A DNA stretch of 64,000 bases from positions 1,056,001 through 1,120,000 of the forward strand of contig CAVVPN010000012.1 in the NCBI GenBank assembly GCA_963750165.1, written 5' to 3'. The position numbers were made by a program, and so were the translations under genes. Within the stretch, counting starts at the first letter, position 1. Each line of letters starts with the position of its first letter. Below are positions 36,230 to 43,363 of the stretch, piece after piece. Below the pieces are notes generated by a model. It searched no databases. It was not told the DNA's origin and saw only the letters and a list, made by a program, of their open reading frames with translations. This DNA comes from an uncultured Gemmataceae bacterium (GTDB taxonomy: Bacteria; Planctomycetota; Planctomycetia; Gemmatales; Gemmataceae).

Positions 36230-36374
36230 CGGCGCGGCAAGGCGGCCAGGCGAGGGGAAGGTGGGAATTGTGATTCTTCACGAAACCCGGGCAGAGGCAA
36301 GGCCGATACCAATCCCACGGAGAGGTGGGGCCGCGGCGCGGGCCGTGCTCCGGATCCGGGGAGGGCGGACGGTA

Positions 36375-37244
36375 ATGCTGCAATTTGAGAACCCAGGCCC
36401 TTCTGGTCGGCGGACGGTCTGGCGGCGGCTGCGCTGGCTGCTGGGCGGGGGTCTGTTCGTGACGGTGGCGGTGCTGCTGGCACAGGTGGGCCACATCGTG
36501 CTGGGCGGCAACTTTCACGAGGTGGTGCGCGGCGAGGTCTACCGCAGTGCCCAGCTGTCGCCAGCGACGCTGGAGGCGTACATCCGGGCGTACCGCATTC
36601 GCACCGTGATCAATTTGCGGGGTGAGAATTTTGACGACGAGTGGTATCACCGCGAAATCGAGACGACCGTCCGTGCGGGGGCGGTGTTCGAGGACGTGGG
36701 ACTGTGGGCGTACAGTCCACCGCCGCCGGGCGAACTGATCCGCCTGGTGGATTTCCTGGAGCACGCCGAGACGCCCATCCTGGTCCACTGCCACACCGGC
36801 GCGGACCGAGCGGGGTTGGCGTCGGTGCTGGCCTTGCTGCTGCGCACTGACACCTCATTGTCACAGGCGCGCGGCCAGCTGACGCTCTACTACGGCCACA
36901 ACCGCTGGGGCAAGGCCGCCTGCCACGACCGCCTGCTTGACCGCTACGAAGAATGGTTGCAGGCGACGGGCAAGCCGCACAGCCCGGACATGCTGCGCCA
37001 CTGGGTCCGCCATCTGTACGATCCGGAACGGATCATGAATCAGCGCACCGAACACAGTTCACGTGCGGATCACTCGACTCAATGCTCAGCTGCAACCTCA
37101 GTTGGCCCGTCACGTGCAACAACTGGTTTGGGTCAAGAAAAATGTCCGCGTCCCCTTTTTCTTCTTGTCGATCTGAACATCTCCGCTTGTACTCAAAAGG
37201 CCCGTCCGCAGCAGTGGTTGGTTCGGCTCAACAAGCTACGCTGA
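36375..37244 (+). CDS. Protein tyrosine/dual-specificity phosphatase-like protein; C-terminal ~64 aa read through attC sequence
   Basis: NFHEVV.GEVYRSAQ, IRTVINLRG, PILVHCHTGADRAG (CX5R); start at ATG 36375. Confidence 0.85.
   Translation: MLQFENPGPSGRRTVWRRLRWLLGGGLFVTVAVLLAQVGHIVLGGNFHEVVRGEVYRSAQLSPATLEAYIRAYRIRTVINLRGENFDDEWYHREIETTVRAGAVFEDVGLWAYSPPPPGELIRLVDFLEHAETPILVHCHTGADRAGLASVLALLLRTDTSLSQARGQLTLYYGHNRWGKAACHDRLLDRYEEWLQATGKPHSPDMLRHWVRHLYDPERIMNQRTEHSSRADHSTQCSAATSVGPSRATTGLGQEKCPRPLFLLVDLNISACTQKARPQQWLVRLNKLR
37047..37132 (-). other. Integron attC site (complete, 86 bp)
   Basis: Minus strand CCCAAAC-CAGTT-GTTGCACG-TGACGGGCC...GATCCGCA-CGTGAAC-TGT-GTTCGGT: R''/L''/L'/R' with an extra base in L''. 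Confidence 0.8.
37169..37227 (-). other. Integron attC 5' half (truncated)
   Basis: Minus strand GCCGAAC-CAACC-ACTGCTGC-GGACGGGCC..., aligning with the first half of the 37702-37791 attC and ending abruptly at an AAGAAGAAAAAGGGGAC motif. Confidence 0.65.
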
Positions 37245-37276
37245 CCCCTTTTCTTCTTCCCGGATTTGACGCGCGG

Positions 37277-37687
37277 CTAGTCCGCGGGCGGCGACGGGGG
37301 TGGTTTGGGTTTAAGCCGTGGCTTGATCCACTCGGTGTCCAGGAACCCGGGTAGCGACTCGGCCAGTTTCTCTGGCCCGCTGTCGTCCGACCCGATCTTG
37401 TACACTGCCGGATCCCCGTCCAGACGCAGGCAAAAGTAGTCGTTGTCGTCGTCCGTCCCAATCAGCAGGTACTCTTTCCACCAATTCGGGTACGGCTCAT
37501 AGAGGCTACAGCGGGGATCTCGCTCGCGAAGGTTCTCGCTGAGGACATCGTCTGGCCGCGCCCAGATCCAACTGCCCAGTTGGCTGGCTCGAAACTCAGC
37601 CCCATGGGCAAGCATCAGTTCGCGATACGCGGTCGGGAGGGTTATTCCCAGCCCACCCGCGATTCGGTTCAAGTCTTCCTCAGTCAT
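37277..37687 (-). CDS. SMI1/KNR4 family (immunity-type) protein, integron gene cassette
   Basis: LGITLPTAYRELM...LLIGTDDDNDYFCL..VY...LAESL..FL; ATG 15 nt after the attC R' GTTCGGC, with a GGAG RBS in between. Confidence 0.8.
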   Translation of the reverse strand: MTEEDLNRIAGGLGITLPTAYRELMLAHGAEFRASQLGSWIWARPDDVLSENLRERDPRCSLYEPYPNWWKEYLLIGTDDDNDYFCLRLDGDPAVYKIGSDDSGPEKLAESLPGFLDTEWIKPRLKPKPPPSPPAD

Positions 37688-37701
37688 GCGCTTCTCCAAT
37701 C

Positions 37702-37791
37702 GCCGAACAACCCCAGTTCACGTGCGGGCCACTCGTCTCAATGTGTCCGATTTACCTCAGATAGCCCGTCACGTGCAACGGCTGGTTCGGC
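37702..37791 (-). other. Integron attC site (complete, 90 bp)
   Basis: Minus strand GCCGAAC-CAGCC-GTTGCACG-TGACGGGC...GCCCGCA-CGTGAAC-TGGGGTT-GTTCGGC. Confidence 0.88.
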
Positions 37792-37818
37792 CAAAATAAT
37801 GATGAATGTCCCCTTTTC

Positions 37819-37995
37819 CCTGGACCTGTGGGCCGCAGTGCAGCGCTTGCCGCTCTACGAAGCCGCCTTGCACCTGGCGGAGACCTTCGGCTTGCGCCGG
37901 AACAGAGAAGAGGAACCCGTGAAGAGAACCCGTTGACCGCTTCGCCAGAGAGGGCGGAAAAAAGAACCGTCATCACGACGGACGGTTCTTGACTT
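37819..37995 (+). pseudogene. 3' end remnant of a mobile-element gene (CHC2 zinc-finger-like tail) plus hairpin
   Basis: LDLWAAVQRLPLYEAALHLAETFGL...NREEEPV*, then AAGAACCGTC-N9-GACGGTTCTT; the 5' part is absent. Confidence 0.45.
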
Positions 37996-38179
37996 TCAAC
38001 GGTACATCTTTTCTTTCTCGGCCAGCCTCACATCCCGCACATCAGATCGAGCTGCGTCCTCTTTTCTTCGTCGCGTCGCCTGGTATCCCTTCGCGATTCC
38101 CGTTAAACTTGCCTTACCGTTGTGGACCTGCCCATCCGAATCTTTCACCCTTGTCGTGAAACTCAACCGGAGCAGTATC

Positions 38180-39475
38180 ATGCGAAATGTACGGCGTACC
38201 CGACCCACCCTTGAGTCCCTTGAGAACCGACTCTGCCCCACCGGCCTCACCGTTCGCTTCATCAGCGGCACTCTGTACATCAGCGGCGATTCCACCAGCA
38301 GGATCATTAATCTGAACCAGACCCTACTTACCGGCCAGATCCAGGTATTCGACAACACCTCCCTCCTGGGCACCTTCAGTGCCAACAGCATCAACCTCCA
38401 GACCGGCAACGCCGCGGAAACCGTCACCTTGACCCTGGCCGGCTCGCGCACCTTCAACGGCAATGTCTCCCTCACCACCGGGAACGGAAACGACCAGATT
38501 GTCGTCACCGGCGACGGCAGCGGTCTCCCGCAGATTTCCGGTAACCTCACCATTAACACGGGCCAGGGTACCAACCAGGTCACCACCGGCACAACCGGCA
38601 GTTTCCAAGTCAGCGGCAACGTCTTACTTCAAGGCGCCGGCAGCGACACCTTTACCATCGAGGGTGGCACCGTCATCAACGGCAACCTCAGCGCCACCGA
38701 TCCGACGGGGACCTTCCAGCTCGGCGGAAGCGGTGATGGTGCGGCGGTCAAGGGCAACGTGACCATCAACGGCGCGGGCAGCCACAACGTCACCGTCACC
38801 CCCAATGGGGGCGTCTTCGGGAACTTCCAATCCTCCACGGGTGGCGGTCTCAACCAGGTCACGATCAACGCCCCCATCCTGGGCAACGTCAACGTGACCG
38901 AGACCGGTAGCCCCAGCAACCTGACGCTGACCTCCCTGGTCGGCGGCAGCCTGACCTACACGGGCTCGGGGACCAATTCCGTCAATCTCATCCTCGCGTC
39001 CATGATCGGTGGCGATGCCACGTTGAACCTGGGCAACGGCGACAGCAATTACACGCTCGGCGGCGCCGCGACCATCTATGGCAGTCTGCGGGTCAATGCC
39101 GGCAACGGGACGGACATCGGCTTCCTGAACGGCACGATCAACCGCAACCTGTCGATCACCGTCGGCAACGGCGCCAATACGCTGACCATTGCGAACGCCC
39201 CGGGTGGTGTCCTGTCCTGGACGAGCGGCAATGGCAACAGCTCCCTGATGCTCGGGTTCAGTCTCTTCACCACCGGACCCGAAACCTGGACCGTCAACGT
39301 GCGCTTCGGCACCGGCAGCGACACGTTCGCGCTGAGCGGCGCGGTGGCGCCCACCCACTACCTCACCGGCTTTGTGGACATGGGCGGCCCTCCGGGCGGG
39401 AACTCCTTCGATCCGGCGCATGCGCTGGGGGTGAACTGGCAAGTGCTCGGGCCGTTCACGATCCAGAACGTGTAA
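38180..39475 (+). CDS. Planctomycete extracellular Gly/Asn/Thr-rich (beta-helix-like) protein
   Basis: RPTLESLENRLCP motif followed by repeated GNL.I.TG.G.D units. Confidence 0.8.
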   Translation: MRNVRRTRPTLESLENRLCPTGLTVRFISGTLYISGDSTSRIINLNQTLLTGQIQVFDNTSLLGTFSANSINLQTGNAAETVTLTLAGSRTFNGNVSLTTGNGNDQIVVTGDGSGLPQISGNLTINTGQGTNQVTTGTTGSFQVSGNVLLQGAGSDTFTIEGGTVINGNLSATDPTGTFQLGGSGDGAAVKGNVTINGAGSHNVTVTPNGGVFGNFQSSTGGGLNQVTINAPILGNVNVTETGSPSNLTLTSLVGGSLTYTGSGTNSVNLILASMIGGDATLNLGNGDSNYTLGGAATIYGSLRVNAGNGTDIGFLNGTINRNLSITVGNGANTLTIANAPGGVLSWTSGNGNSSLMLGFSLFTTGPETWTVNVRFGTGSDTFALSGAVAPTHYLTGFVDMGGPPGGNSFDPAHALGVNWQVLGPFTIQNV

Positions 39476-39494
39476 ACCGACCTGGCCGTTCCTC

Positions 39495-39559
39495 GGGCAG
39501 GATAAGGGGCACTCAACATGATAAGGCCTGAAAGGAATGAACGTCCCCTGTTCCTGCCC
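39495..39559. repeat. Palindromic GGGG...CCCC miniature element
   Basis: GGGCAGGATAAGGGGCACTCAACAT...AATGAACGTCCCCTGTTCCTGCCC; its arm AGGGGACGTTCAT matches AGGGGACATTCAT beside the 37791 attC. Confidence 0.6.
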
Positions 39560-39571
39560 AAAGCCTCTCGC

Positions 39572-39666
39572 GCCGAACCCGGGAGTTCTGTTACTCGGCG
39601 CGCTTCTGCCGCTGCCAGTCAGCTGCACCAGGCCGCGCGCCGAGTAACAGCAACGTGTGGTTCGGC
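39572..39666 (-). other. Integron attC site (complete, 95 bp)
   Basis: Minus strand GCCGAAC-CACAC-GTTGCTGT-TACTCGGCGCGC...GCGCGCCGAGTA-ACAGAAC-TCCCGG-GTTCGGC. Confidence 0.8.
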
Positions 39667-39886
39667 TTGGCGGACCGGTAGGCAGAGACCCCCGTGTTCC
39701 TGGGGGCCGGCCGGTTGCCCTTGGGCAGACCGAGGGGGTGCTGCTGGCAACCTCGAGCCAGCGCCCGCCTCACCAGCGTCGATGCACCTACCCTCGTCGT
39801 ACCGACGGAGCCGAGACCGTGACTGCCGGCCGGAGCGTGTCGGGCGGCTCAGGGCTGCCGGGGCGAGGCGGGCGGCGGCGGGGTGC

Positions 39887-39949
39887 CGCTAACGACTAAG
39901 CTCACTTGCCGGGGCCGCCTCGATCAACGTCATGCCGCGCAAAAAAACC
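39887..39949 (-). other. Integron attC 3' half, cut by ISL3
   Basis: Minus strand GGTTTTTTTGCGCGGCATGACG...GGCGGCCCCGGCAAGTGAGC-TTAGTC-GTTAGCG abutting the ISL3 end at 39950. Confidence 0.6.
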
Positions 39950-39989
39950 GGTTCTTCCGTTTTTAGAGCGGTTCGCGTTTGGGTAGCGC

Positions 39990-40062
39990 ACAAGTCGTGG
40001 GACGGCTCTCCAGAGCCGTCAGCGTTCTCCCGACGGCTCTGGAGAGCCGTCCCACGACTTGT
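39990..40062. repeat. REP inverted doublet (31-bp perfect arms) inside the ISL3 3' end
   Basis: ACAAGTCGTGGGACGGCTCTCCAGAGCCGTC-N11-GACGGCTCTGGAGAGCCGTCCCACGACTTGT. Confidence 0.85.
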
Positions 40063-40628
40063 AGTCCACGCGACTGGGAACCGCTCTAGGTGCAAGCGCC
40101 TGAGAAAATGGCCCGGAAGCCCGCCACCAGTTCCCGAATGTGGGCGATGGTCTGCCGCACCAGATCCTTGCCTCGGTTTAGGTCCAGGATCAACCGGCTC
40201 CACAGACTGTCCGCGGACTTCAGCCCGTAGGCACGCTTGACAATCACGCGCGCCTTGTTGTTGATCCCCTCCACTGGCCCACTCGTCTGCCGGCCCTCGA
40301 AGTAGTTCAGGATCTCGTCTTGCCAGGTCTCGAAGGTCACGATGAACTTCTCCATCGCCGGGAACTCCTCCAGGATGTCCAGCCACACCCCGGTCAGCCA
40401 CCGTAGCGCCTGCCGCCGGTCCGTGGCCGTGTCGAAGATCTTCTGGAAGCGCACGCGGATCTCGTACAGCCGCCGCAGCCGGGGCAACTGCTCAAACAAG
40501 GCCTCCAGCTTCGCTTGCTCTGCCTTGGTCAGGTCCTTGGGGTTGCGGCGGAACTCCCACATCAACGAGCGAAATTCCTTCCGTTGCGCCTTCGTGAGCT
40601 TCTGCTTGTGGCCCCGCGTGATTTTTTT

Positions 40629-42301
40629 CTAGGACAGCAAAGCCGGCTAGACAGCTAACCTGGGTTTGGGTTACGCTTTAGCGCCCCAACCCAGGAGCTT
40701 GCCATGGCCAGGAAGGCGCCCCGCCCCGAACCCACCTTCACCCAACACCTGGACGCCTTGTACCAGGACTGCCCCGCCTGCCACCGACGGATGTGGTCCG
40801 ACTACCGGAACGACCGCACCGTCGTCACCCTGCTGGGCCTGACACGGCTGGTGCTCCACATCCGCCGCTGCCACACCGCCGACTGCCCACGCCACCTGCA
40901 GCCCTACCGGCCCGAGGCCGAGGGCCGCCACGCCCTGCCCCAGCACGAGTTCGGCCTGGACGTCATCGCCCACCTCGGCGCCCTCCGCTACGCCGAGCAC
41001 CGCTCCGTCCCCGAGATCCACCAGCACCTGGTCGCCCGGGGCCTGGCCATCGCCGAGCGGACGGTCACCAACCTCCTGGAGCGCTACGACGAACTGCTGG
41101 CCGTCACCCTGACCGACGCCGGCCGCCTGCGCGGGTTGCTGGCCGCGCAGGGCCGCGTCATCCTGGCCATCGACGGCCTGCAGCCCGACGTCGGCCACGA
41201 GGTGCTCTGGGTGTTGCGCGACTGCCTCTCCGGCACCGTCCTGCTGGCCCGCAGCCTGTTGTCCAGCCGGCAGCAGGACCTGGCCGAACTCATCGGCCAG
41301 GTGCGCGACGGCCTGGCGGTGCCGATCACCGGGGTGGTCTCCGACGGCCAGCACTCCATCCGCAAGGCCGTGGCCGAAGCCTTGCCCGGCGTGCCGCACC
41401 AACTCTGCCACTTCCACTACCTCCGCGAAGCCGCCCGGCCCATCTACGAGGCCGACCGCCACGCCAAGAAGGAACTCAAGAAGCGCGTCCGCGGCGTGCG
41501 GCCCCTCGAGCGCCAGGTGGAGGGCCGCACCGACCCCGAGGCCCAGGCCATCCAGGGGTACTGCGACGCGGTCCGCAGTGCCGTGACCGACGACGGCCGG
41601 CCGCCCCTGGAAGCGTCCGGGCTGAAACTCCACGACCGCCTGAGCGCCGTGGTGGCCAGCCTGGACGGGGTGGCCGAAAAAAGGGGCTCCCGAAAGAACT
41701 CGTCCGGCTGAGGCTGCTGCTCGTGGCGGCGTTGGCGGCCACGGCGCCGCTGTGGCCCCCGGTGCGCGTGGCCTTCGCCTGGGTCTGGCAGGCGGCGCAC
41801 CTGCTGGGCGAACACGGCCCCGGGGTGGCCCCAGCCGTGCGGCAGCGCCTGGGTGGTCTGCTCGGGGCGATGACCCGCCACCGCGGGCTGGTCGGGGCGC
41901 TGGCGAGCGGGGTCGAGCACTTCGTGAAGGTCACCCGGAGCTACTGGCCGGGGCTGTTCCACTGCTACGCCGTCGCGGACCTACCGCGGACGAACAACGA
42001 CCTGGAGCAGTTCTTCGGCAGCCATCGCTACCACGAGCGCCGGGCCAGCGGCCGCACGGGGGCGTCCCCGAGTCTGGTGCTCCGTGGGGAGGCCCGCGTG
42101 TTGGCGGCCGCGGCGACCCGGCAGCACGTCTACACAGCGGAAGAGTTGGCGGAGGCAGACCCGGTCAGGCAGGCGGAACTCCGCCAACACCTGGAGTCCC
42201 GCCGCCGCCGCCGAGTCAACCGCACACGGTTCCGTCGCAATCCCCGGGCGTTCCTCCAACAGTTGGAGGAAAAACTGCTCCAGCCGGCTTTGCTGTCCTA
42301 G
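40629..42301 (+). mobile_element. Insertion sequence (unclassified, ISNCY-like DDE) with 20-bp perfect IRs
   Basis: CTAGGACAGCAAAGCCGGCT...AGCCGGCTTTGCTGTCCTAG, flanked by T7 and T8 runs. Confidence 0.88.
40704..42301 (+). CDS. Transposase, two ORFs joined by a probable programmed -1 frameshift
   Basis: ILAIDGLQP, VVSDG, HQLCHFHYLR in ORF1; PRTNNDLEQFFG in ORF2; A AAA AAG at 41677-41683 links the two frames. Confidence 0.85.
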
Positions 42302-43241
42302 TTTTTTTTCCGCTCCTGGTCCACGACCTCGTTGAACTTCTTGGCGACGTGGAAGCGGTCGATGACCGCCTGGGCGTTGGGCAGCAAGCCCCGACAAGCG
42401 GCGTGGAACGCCGGCCCCATGTCGGCCCGGTAGGTATGCACCTGCAGGCGCTGCGCCGCGGACAACTTCTCCAGGCACTGCTGCGCCGCCGCCGCGTCAC
42501 GGCCTGCGGTCACCGCCAGCACTTCGGGCCGGTCGGGGTTGGTCAGGTCGGTCAGGATCGTCACGTAGAGCTTGTGCCGCTTCTTCAGGCTCAACTCGTC
42601 AATGCCCACGTCCTGGATCACGCGCTGGGGGTCGATCGTCTTGGCCTGGGTGTCGGCCAACTGGTTGCGGACGATCAGGCCGACCGTCTCCGCCGAGATG
42701 CCCAGGCGGCGGGCCACCTCCTCCTCGTTACTGCCGATCAGCGCCCGCAAGACGTGCTGCTCGAAGCGGTAGGTGTAGCTCGTGTCCCGGCGCTTGAAGG
42801 GCGGGATCAGGTGTTGTCGGTGATGGCAGTGGGGGCAGCGGTGGAAAACCGGTTGGTAGATCCAGAAGCTCGGTTGGCCCCAGAGTTCCAGGTCGCGGAC
42901 GACTTGCACCGTCTCCTTGAACTCCAGGTGCGCGTCCTCCTCGCGGCGGCAGCGGTCGCAGCGACAGCGGTTGGGCAAGGGCCAGGAGACTTCAAAGCCG
43001 TGGCCGTCGCCGTGGCGCTCGTAAGCCACGATGGTGACGCCTTCCGGGAGATCCACGTCGATAGTGATGGTGGCCATGACCGTCCCTGACGAGCAAGCAT
43101 CGAGAACCCCAGGGCCGGCCGACGCACGGCACCTATCCAGAAATGTAAGCCCCGCACGCCGCCCAGAAAAGGCTCAAAAATCCAGGCACTCGCACTTTAC
43201 CCCGGAAGAACCCTTTCTTCGGGACGAAGAAGGATTCTTCC

Positions 43242-43363
43242 GGCTCTTCCGTTTTTAGGTGCGAAACACTGGATTTTCGGTGAACGGACGATCACGTGCC
43301 CCACGATTTTTCCAGGAAAATTGAGAATCGGGCCGATAACCCGCACCTAAAAACGGAAGAGCC
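43242..43363. mobile_element. 122-bp ISL3-type MITE
   Basis: 22-bp perfect IRs GGCTCTTCCGTTTTTAGGTGCG / CGCACCTAAAAACGGAAGAGCC, similar to the ISL3 end at 39950; no ORF. Confidence 0.8.

What the first reader, a model, noticed from the sequence alone, without database searches (positions are those of the whole stretch)
37133..39705. A GGGG(A/T)C motif sits 18-23 nt upstream of every attC start and marks breakpoints: candidate attC-linked mobilisation system
Seen (minus strand): AAGAAGAAAAAGGGGACGCGGACATTTTTCTTGA|CCCAAAC (37132), AAGAAGAAAAGGGGTCAGCGTAGCTTGTTGA|GCCGAAC (37227), GGGAAAAGGGGACATTCATCATTATTTTG|GCCGAAC (37791) and, more loosely, AGGAACACGGGGGTCTCTGCCTACCGGTCCGCCAA|GCCGAAC (39666). 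In two cases the DNA upstream of the motif is cut abruptly (a half attC at ~37169, a gene remnant at ~37819). A complete two-armed GGGG...CCCC palindrome with a matching arm lies at 39495-39559. Inference: one arm of a miniature element family, possibly served by an HUH/Y1 transposase, is repeatedly fused to attC. It may deliver attC sites behind genes, or target DNA next to attC hairpins. This would bear on the open question of how cassettes are created and dispersed. I do not know of this motif-attC coupling being described; it is speculative.
Basis: partly seen in the sequence, partly recalled or inferred. Interest (0 to 1): 0.75.

Follow-up and report, generated by a model that had tools for sequence, protein, structure and literature searches.

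The report
Transposon ends re-tailing integron cassettes
The motif is the end-repeat of a known small single-strand-DNA transposase element (TIRtron); in this bacterium such ends sit just in front of about a fifth of integron recombination sites and at cut points in neighbouring genes, and they likely let the transposase splice new DNA, including one ordinary chromosomal-type gene, into cassettes.

Summary
Three of the four motifs are terminal inverted repeats (TIRs) of TIRtrons (TIRYT Y1/HUH transposases; published consensus GGGGWSAS). The same end types flank such genes in this genome and in relatives. The fourth (39692) matches no type.

"Every attC" is false. RAAAGGGGWC precedes 11 of 94 attC sites (10 of 46 in one attC family, 1 of 48 others), against 4 of 965 low-GC ORF ends (p≈2e-9), and never on the opposite strand.

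Breakpoints hold up. Five half-attC sites, a truncated intI copy and an IS110 gene end are cut outside an arm, 6–20 nt from its G-run where an intact reference exists. The 431-aa gene at 38180–39475 has an 85%-identical non-cassette allele in G088. The shared block ends 13 and 27 nt outside two outward-facing TIRs, inside an attC-bounded unit.

The same arm+attC junctions recur behind unrelated DNA and in other genera, but rarely (2 of 200 relatives).

Best reading: TIRYT-type strand transfer re-tails and reloads cassettes. This is inferred; no enzyme activity is shown. Both parts are known; I found no paper coupling them. It is not a general cassette factory.

The parts
37047..37132 (-). attC (family A, 86 nt); its R' crossover meets the 3' end of a conserved host phosphatase gene
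   Evidence: phosphatase homology in 36 of 40 relatives ends at query aa ~214-224, next to the crossover
37133..37166 (-). TIR arm type T3 with purine tail; resembles a TIRtron left end up to the TTGAC hexamer, fused to R''
   Evidence: (L248, L252, L254); same fusion at C12+1304462 and in G088
37167..37227 (-). left half of an attC, cut at the tail of the T3 arm
37228..37258 (-). TIR arm type T6 fused to the half attC
   Evidence: resembles left ends of the TIRYT genes at C4:530.7k and C12:61.3k, one mismatch in the core
37277..37687 (-). SMI1/KNR4 cassette gene
   Evidence: Pfam PF09346 E 7.6e-12; 81% DNA allele in G241 has a longer C-terminus, another attC-like site and no arm
37702..37791 (-). 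attC (family A, 90 nt)
37792..37820 (-). TIR arm type T2 fused to R''
   Evidence: free T2 dimer at C11:1121113; near-identical junction at C12+1194962 and C3+1722054
37820..37936 (+). 3' remnant (38 aa) of an IS110 + CHC2 zinc-finger transposase, cut at the T2 tail
38048..38069 (-).
   Evidence: (L253)
38075..39478 (+). captured block: 105-nt upstream region plus 431-aa secreted-type gene (38180-39475), antisense to the array
   Evidence: 85% identical over 1,414 nt to a G088 locus with no attC or TIR in 4.3 kb; no Pfam hit
39495..39559 (.). two-armed TIR dimer (decayed, T2-like)
39572..39666 (-). atypical attC-like hairpin (95 nt)
39687..39692 (-). GGGGTC core without A-rich tail; not assignable to a TIR type
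39887..39950 (-). right half of a further attC, left half lost at an ISL3 end

Best explanation
The motifs are TIRtron end-repeats lodged in an integron cassette cluster, and a TIRYT-type HUH transposase likely cuts single-stranded DNA on either side of them and joins it to other DNA, which would re-tail existing cassettes and occasionally load a new gene in front of an attC. Step 1 (inferred): an inner-side join fuses an arm to the base of an attC 15-50 nt from the G-run. This happened for at least six TIR types, and the same inner distance gives the free two-armed dimers. Step 2 (junctions shown, enzyme inferred): outer-side joins attach the arm+attC unit to new upstream DNA 6-27 nt outside the G-run, often leaving a duplicated purine tail; some swaps map to the G-run itself. 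Step 3 (established integron biology): IntI then moves the resulting unit by attC recombination, including into host sites, as appears to be the case at 37054.
For: Identity: this genome's Y1 genes carry these ends; 21 of 30 TIRYT loci have a left arm, mostly 52-58 nt before the start codon; 28 of 30 were typed and types follow enzyme clades. Enrichment and polarity: 11 of 94 attC vs 4 of 965 low-GC ORF ends; 32 of 58 arm loci lie within 3 kb of an attC (2.2% of the genome); single arms 24 same-strand vs 3 opposite. Breakpoints against intact references: intI copy 291/291 identical then 9 nt to the G-run; two attC at 10 and 20 nt; IS110 6-7 nt; G216 allele 9-10 nt and G147 allele 26 nt; G088 allele 13 and 27 nt. 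Three loci share the outer flank up to the G-run and differ in arm type. Duplicated tails in 11 of 70 arms vs 0.9% of control sites. Same arm+attC types sit behind unrelated DNA: 0 of 30 pairs similar. 5 of 9 broken attC end at a TIR tail (hand count). TnpA-REP relatives cut 5' and 3' of their motif and do strand transfer (PMC8266576 passages).
Against: No activity has been shown for any TIRYT in the papers read. The only intact TIRYT found here has T7 ends, which lie at just 1 attC; enzymes for T1-T4 were not found in this 93%-complete assembly. No attC was detected in the 30 TIRtron loci. REP-type C|T or C|A cut sites fit only 4 of 6 junctions (chance 0.31-0.37 each). 26 of 58 arm loci are far from attC. 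Strict arms precede 0 of 73 non-A attC from a GTDB sample, 2 of 111 in the G168 superintegron, 0 of 20 others and 1 of 45 metagenome sites. The SMI1 allele's homology ends 64 nt from the G-run. The 3' G088 breakpoint lies 3 nt after the stop codon, where homology would often fade anyway. Arm type tracks attC body only weakly (14 of 45, p=0.058).
Confidence: 0.55

Rival explanations
1. TIR dimers land in arrays as selfish hairpins; host replication slippage or hairpin cleavage and repair then deletes DNA between a dimer and a nearby attC, with no role for TIRYT after insertion.
For: Dimers and attC both fold; arrays are tolerated, low-GC DNA (median GC 0.61 around arms); cognate intact enzymes were not found here; no fixed cut dinucleotide.
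Against: It predicts leftover reverse arms after attC, but the 3 opposite-strand cases look like degenerate dimers. It does not explain swaps at the G-run, duplicated tails, or a gene bounded by outer ends on both sides.
Confidence: 0.2
2. The arms are passengers: the unknown cassette-making process of this lineage copies attC family A with a variable length of upstream leader that happens to contain an old TIR.
For: 17 of 46 family-A sites share one decayed leader (T9) at a fixed distance, also seen in 11 of 21 metagenome family-A sites; no TIRtron end of that type was seen; weak similarity extends upstream of its core.
Against: Six distinct TIR types are fused, also to other attC families (4 in this genome; 3 in G168); half-attC, intI and IS110 cuts at arms are unrelated to cassette creation.
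Confidence: 0.17
3. TIRYT is the general machine that puts attC behind genes.
For: One clear capture; 5 of 6 cassettes with a reverse arm at their start end in arm+attC, vs 24 of 65 others (p=0.038, hand-curated).
Against: Most attC have no arm; the G216-like cassette has attC directly after its stop codon with no arm; strict fusion in 2 of 200 relatives.
Confidence: 0.04

Closest known systems
TIRtron / TIRYT and TIR repeat families (Di Nocera et al. 2013, PMC3733652; subclass 2.1 of Quentin et al. 2018, PMC6006769; RAYT group 1 of Bertels et al. 2017, PMC5581495)
   Same: Y1/HUH gene between inverted repeats at a fixed distance; GGGGWSAS-type core; dispersed single and dimeric repeats.
   Different: The passages read report no link to attC, no polarity and no role at rearrangement junctions; a term search of PMC3733652 and PMC6006769 finds 'integron' 0 times.
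Sedentary chromosomal integron, CALIN and attG-type insertion (attG cited in PMC12614218; Loot et al. 2024 itself not read)
   Same: IntI over cut-off at C4:1198898 with an array of 59 listed sites; the window cluster has no IntI and abuts a host gene at the crossover.
   Different: Cassette 3' ends and some 5' ends are made of transposon ends.
REPtrons / TnpA-REP (PMC8266576)
   Same: Closest solved relative of the enzyme is 4ER8; cleavage on both sides of a motif and strand transfer are the model for the mechanism.
   Different: No GTAG-tagged hairpin; C|T or C|A preference not established here.
Group IIC-attC intron model of cassette formation (Leon and Roy 2009, seen only as summarised in PMC7923331)
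   Same: A mobile element proposed to join attC to a gene's 3' end.
   Different: DNA-based HUH element; leaves an arm as a scar; no intron sequence at these junctions.

Membership tests
TIRtron TIR (motif) | core fits GGGGWSAS | tested here: inconclusive
   GGGGWC in 3 of 3 strict window arms, but the last two letters fit fully only for T6 (GGGGTCAG); T2 and T3 deviate, as do genuine TIRYT-flanking ends in relatives
TIRtron TIR (motif) | same repeat flanks a Y1 transposase gene in inverted orientation | tested here: met
   T1, T3, T4, T5, T7 at TIRYT genes in relatives; T6/T5 and T7 in this genome; T2 seen only as free dimers and attC fusions
TIRtron TIR (motif) | dispersed single and dimeric copies | tested here: met
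   70 arms: 25 in dimers, 22 lone, 20 at attC, 3 unassigned
TIRYT / TnpA-Y1 subclass 2.1 (enzyme at C11:133772-134473) | HuH motif, Y---NP-like signature, about 238 aa, no REP hairpins | tested here: met
   NHWH and YVERN[AP] across 30 homologues, 234 aa (Table 1 read); Pfam Y1_Tnp over cut-off; below the NF047646 cut-off, 53.9 vs 80
TIRYT / TnpA-Y1 subclass 2.1 (enzyme at C11:133772-134473) | C-terminal HTH (Bac_DnaA_C, HTH_23, HTH_28) | tested here: inconclusive
   conserved helical extension in the model but no Pfam HTH hit; assignment to 2.1.1 or 2.1.2 not tested
TIRYT | cleaves or joins DNA at its TIRs | not testable with these tools
   needs biochemistry
integron cassette / attC | R''/R' and L boxes folding into a bottom-strand hairpin with extrahelical bases | tested here: met
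   37791 and 37132; 39666 atypical; same family as sites in the IntI-linked array
integron cassette / attC | recombined by IntI | not testable with these tools
   IntI present; activity untested

The most novel reading that the evidence does not exclude
TIRtron ends are a gene-intake port for integrons in Gemmataceae-like planctomycetes: TIRYT exchanges strands at or beside the G-run between a resident arm+attC and a circle of [gene + TIR dimer], giving dimer-gene-arm-attC, a new IntI-mobile cassette built from a chromosomal gene. This would be a concrete DNA-based route of cassette creation.
Probability: 0.3. Interest if true: 0.85.

Novelty: new variant of a known kind. Interest (0 to 1): 0.6.

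Why it matters
How genes acquire an attC is an open question, and TIRYT enzymes have no demonstrated activity in the papers read. This locus gives named substrates (arm types matched to enzyme clades), mapped junctions and a candidate before/after pair (G088 allele vs window). A single in vitro cleavage/strand-transfer assay would therefore test both questions. Even the conservative reading makes TIRtron ends polar rearrangement hotspots that remodel superintegrons.

Tried and rejected
- First attC regex missed family A.
- The automatic complete/half classifier was faulty, so I counted by eye. Two false reverse arms were moved to the 'no' group before the test.
- REP-type C|T or C|A cut rule: not significant.
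- T9 leader as coding sequence: no clear 3-nt periodicity.
- Three 'attC?' sites behind T5 arms are another repeat, not attC.
- TIR dimer as the exact inversion point of the G168 array: unresolved, an IS lies between.
- No allele of the 293-aa bracketed gene in 180 relatives.
- Arrays beside intI in relatives were too fragmented (12 attC, no arm upstream).
- No intact forward-arm / attC / reverse-arm unit was evident at solitary attC sites; the nearest reverse arms lay 573-1,593 nt downstream in 3 cases.
- Viral scan gave 10 loci, not analysed.
- No sigma-70 promoter match in 36900-40000.
- Sequencing runs: none was listed.
- Three look-ups of earlier findings returned nothing or nothing further.
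Full report
SETTING. The window is G000:C12:1056001-1120000 of a 9.6-Mb, 66% GC genome. From gene content and named homologues I take it to be a Gemmataceae-like planctomycete (inference; one search lists Gemmataceae names). It has a complete integron: IntI at C4:1198898-1199845, 426 bits vs cut-off 265, and an array of 59 listed attC-like rows, two of which are remains behind an IS. My inventory has 94 attC-like sites, 46 of an 86-90-nt family A and 48 others; the 39666 site was added by hand.

OBSERVATION. The quoted strings are correct. The strict motif RAAAGGGGWC is within 66 nt upstream of 11 of 94 sites (10 of 46 A, 1 of 48 other; p=0.003 between them). Controls: 14 of 18,254 long-ORF ends, 4 of 965 low-GC ends (p=1.6e-9), 0 of 94 on the reverse strand, 1 of 94 downstream. 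GGGGWC alone gives 21 of 94. The coupling is real and polar but not universal. Counting decayed forms by eye, 37 of 45 family-A sites scored carry some arm-like leader, 17 of them the decayed T9 type; those labels are mine and partly circular.

IDENTITY. Di Nocera 2013 (passages) and Quentin 2018 (passages and section 17) describe TIRYT genes flanked by inverted repeats with a GGGGWSAS core. This genome has an intact one at C11:133.8-134.5k, a broken one at C4:530.7k and a truncated one at C12:61k, each with such ends. Homologues occur in 54 of 150 family genomes. In the 30 best loci, 21 have a left and 13 a right arm by my rule. 28 could be typed and types follow clades (cis-linkage alone predicts this). 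The arm at 37166-37133 has the build of T3 left ends down to the TTGAC hexamer, where attC begins. The enzyme's closest solved relative is E. coli TnpA-REP.

ANATOMY IN THE WINDOW (minus strand): ISL3 end, right-half attC (39.9k), short cassette, attC-like 39666, TIR dimer 39559-39495, antisense gene 39475-38180, T4 arm 38069, IS110 remnant, T2 arm, attC 37791, SMI1/KNR4 gene, T6 arm, half attC 37227, T3 arm, attC 37132, then the end of a conserved host phosphatase gene.

BREAKPOINTS WITHIN THE GENOME. Of 70 typed arms, 28 had an outer-flank match elsewhere in the genome. Many of these are IS ends or repeats and uninformative. The informative near-identical ones: an intI copy (291 of 291 nt) cut 9 nt outside a dimer; an attC cut at 20 nt (94%); a cassette-gene copy cut at 27 nt (96%); a repeat cut at 12 nt (97%). 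A further attC is cut at 10 nt (81% reference). Four identical T1 dimers sit in the array with different flanks. By eye, 9 attC are broken: 5 at a TIR tail, 3 by one IS, 1 otherwise. Three loci share their outer flank up to the G-run and continue as T3, T4 or T5. Tails carry tandem duplications in 11 of 70 arms vs 0.9% of 5,000 control sites.

ALLELES IN RELATIVES (five comparisons touch arm-bearing units). (1) G088: the window's 431-aa gene, 85% identical over 38075-39478, with no attC or TIR in the 4.3-kb locus; the shared block ends 13 and 27 nt outside the two outward-facing G-runs. Four more distant homologues also lack attC. Caveats: the 3' end is 3 nt past the stop codon; the G088 locus has a duplicated ~60-nt segment on both sides, so its ancestral state is inferred. 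(2) G147: homology ends 26 nt outside a decayed T4 arm. There the gene follows an attC-like end and precedes a second gene, which suggests re-tailing of an older cassette. (3) G216: non-cassette allele cut 9-10 nt from a dimer, but our copy has attC right after the stop with no arm, so the arm did not supply that attC. (4) G241: the SMI1 allele is a longer cassette gene without an arm; homology ends 64 nt away, which is neutral. (5) The 293-aa gene had no allele in 180 genomes.

REUSE. Sites sharing an arm type have unrelated upstream DNA: 0 of 30 pairs for T1-T5, 1 of 136 for T9. Cassettes with a reverse arm near their start end in arm+attC in 5 of 6 cases vs 24 of 65 (p=0.038; post hoc, hand-curated). 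Two such cargo regions are only 45-49% GC.

BREADTH. The strict fusion pattern occurs in 2 of 200 relatives. G168's superintegron has 2 strict of 111 sites, plus one my scan missed; 20 other sites have none. Of 45 metagenome sites scored (48 distinct, 3 too short), 21 are family A by eye: 11 with the T9 leader and 1 strict. The 23 sites of another family have no strict arm. The phenomenon recurs but is lineage-limited.

MECHANISM. Shown: identity, enrichment, polarity, junction positions, reuse. Inferred: TIRYT-mediated nicking and strand transfer, by analogy to TnpA-REP, which cuts 5' and 3' of its motif (PMC8266576 passages). The specific C|T or C|A rule is not supported (4 of 6), and the enzymes matching most fused types were not found here. 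Confidence 0.55; host repair 0.2; passenger leader 0.17; general factory 0.04.

LITERATURE. Searches (listings) found no paper linking TIRYT repeats to attC. Passages were also read in PMC5581495, PMC7923331, PMC8352920 and PMC12614218. Figures and supplements of Di Nocera 2013 (TIR lists, alignment) were not seen, and subscription papers are not covered. The IS1111-attC label in the passing notes is recalled, not tested. Earlier AI notes agree on the family and differ on attC preference; they are leads only.

VERDICT. A known element in a coupling I could not find described, with one good capture candidate. New variant of a known kind; interest 0.6.

Noticed in passing
G000 C4:1186315-1187960, C4:1179827-1181471, C3:2408182-2409812: Three ~99%-identical 1.63-kb IS copies inserted at the same point in the L' box of one family-A attC subtype; looks like an attC-targeting IS110-group element (label recalled, not typed).
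   Followed up: partly
G000 C4:1189735-1190720: A 97.5% copy of the integron's own platform (upstream region plus intI codons ~1-148) sits inside the array, joined to a half attC through a TIR dimer.
   Followed up: partly
window 39964-40088: Long REP-like palindrome of a very abundant family that also flanks and interrupts a Y1 gene at C11:2305.6k.
   Followed up: no
window 36372-37244 (+): Conserved phosphatase ORF reads through attC 37132 and the T3 arm; homology stops at the crossover, suggesting integration at a host (attG-like) site.
   Followed up: partly
family-A attC, -36 to -5: Conserved purine-rich leader (T9) shared with metagenome sites; possibly an old T1 arm, possibly a signature of cassette creation in this lineage.
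   Followed up: partly
L172 (G128:C3 ~68.9k-76.8k): Array with group II intron RT-like stretches (recognised from recall) and four TIR arms iterated head to tail.
   Followed up: no
L277 (G168:C11 870.8k-873.3k): A 100+-site superintegron flips orientation here; an IS and a TIR dimer with a duplicated tail lie next to the flip.
   Followed up: partly
window 39950-43352: ISL3 element interrupted by a second IS (ORF 40704-41711); beyond it a split tyrosine recombinase, a PIN-like/AbrB-like pair (by eye) and an IS3-family element.
   Followed up: no
G000 C12+63790, C3+2672850, C3+2678120: A ~150-nt structured repeat follows T5 arms in three places; begins like an attC R'' but is not one.
   Followed up: no
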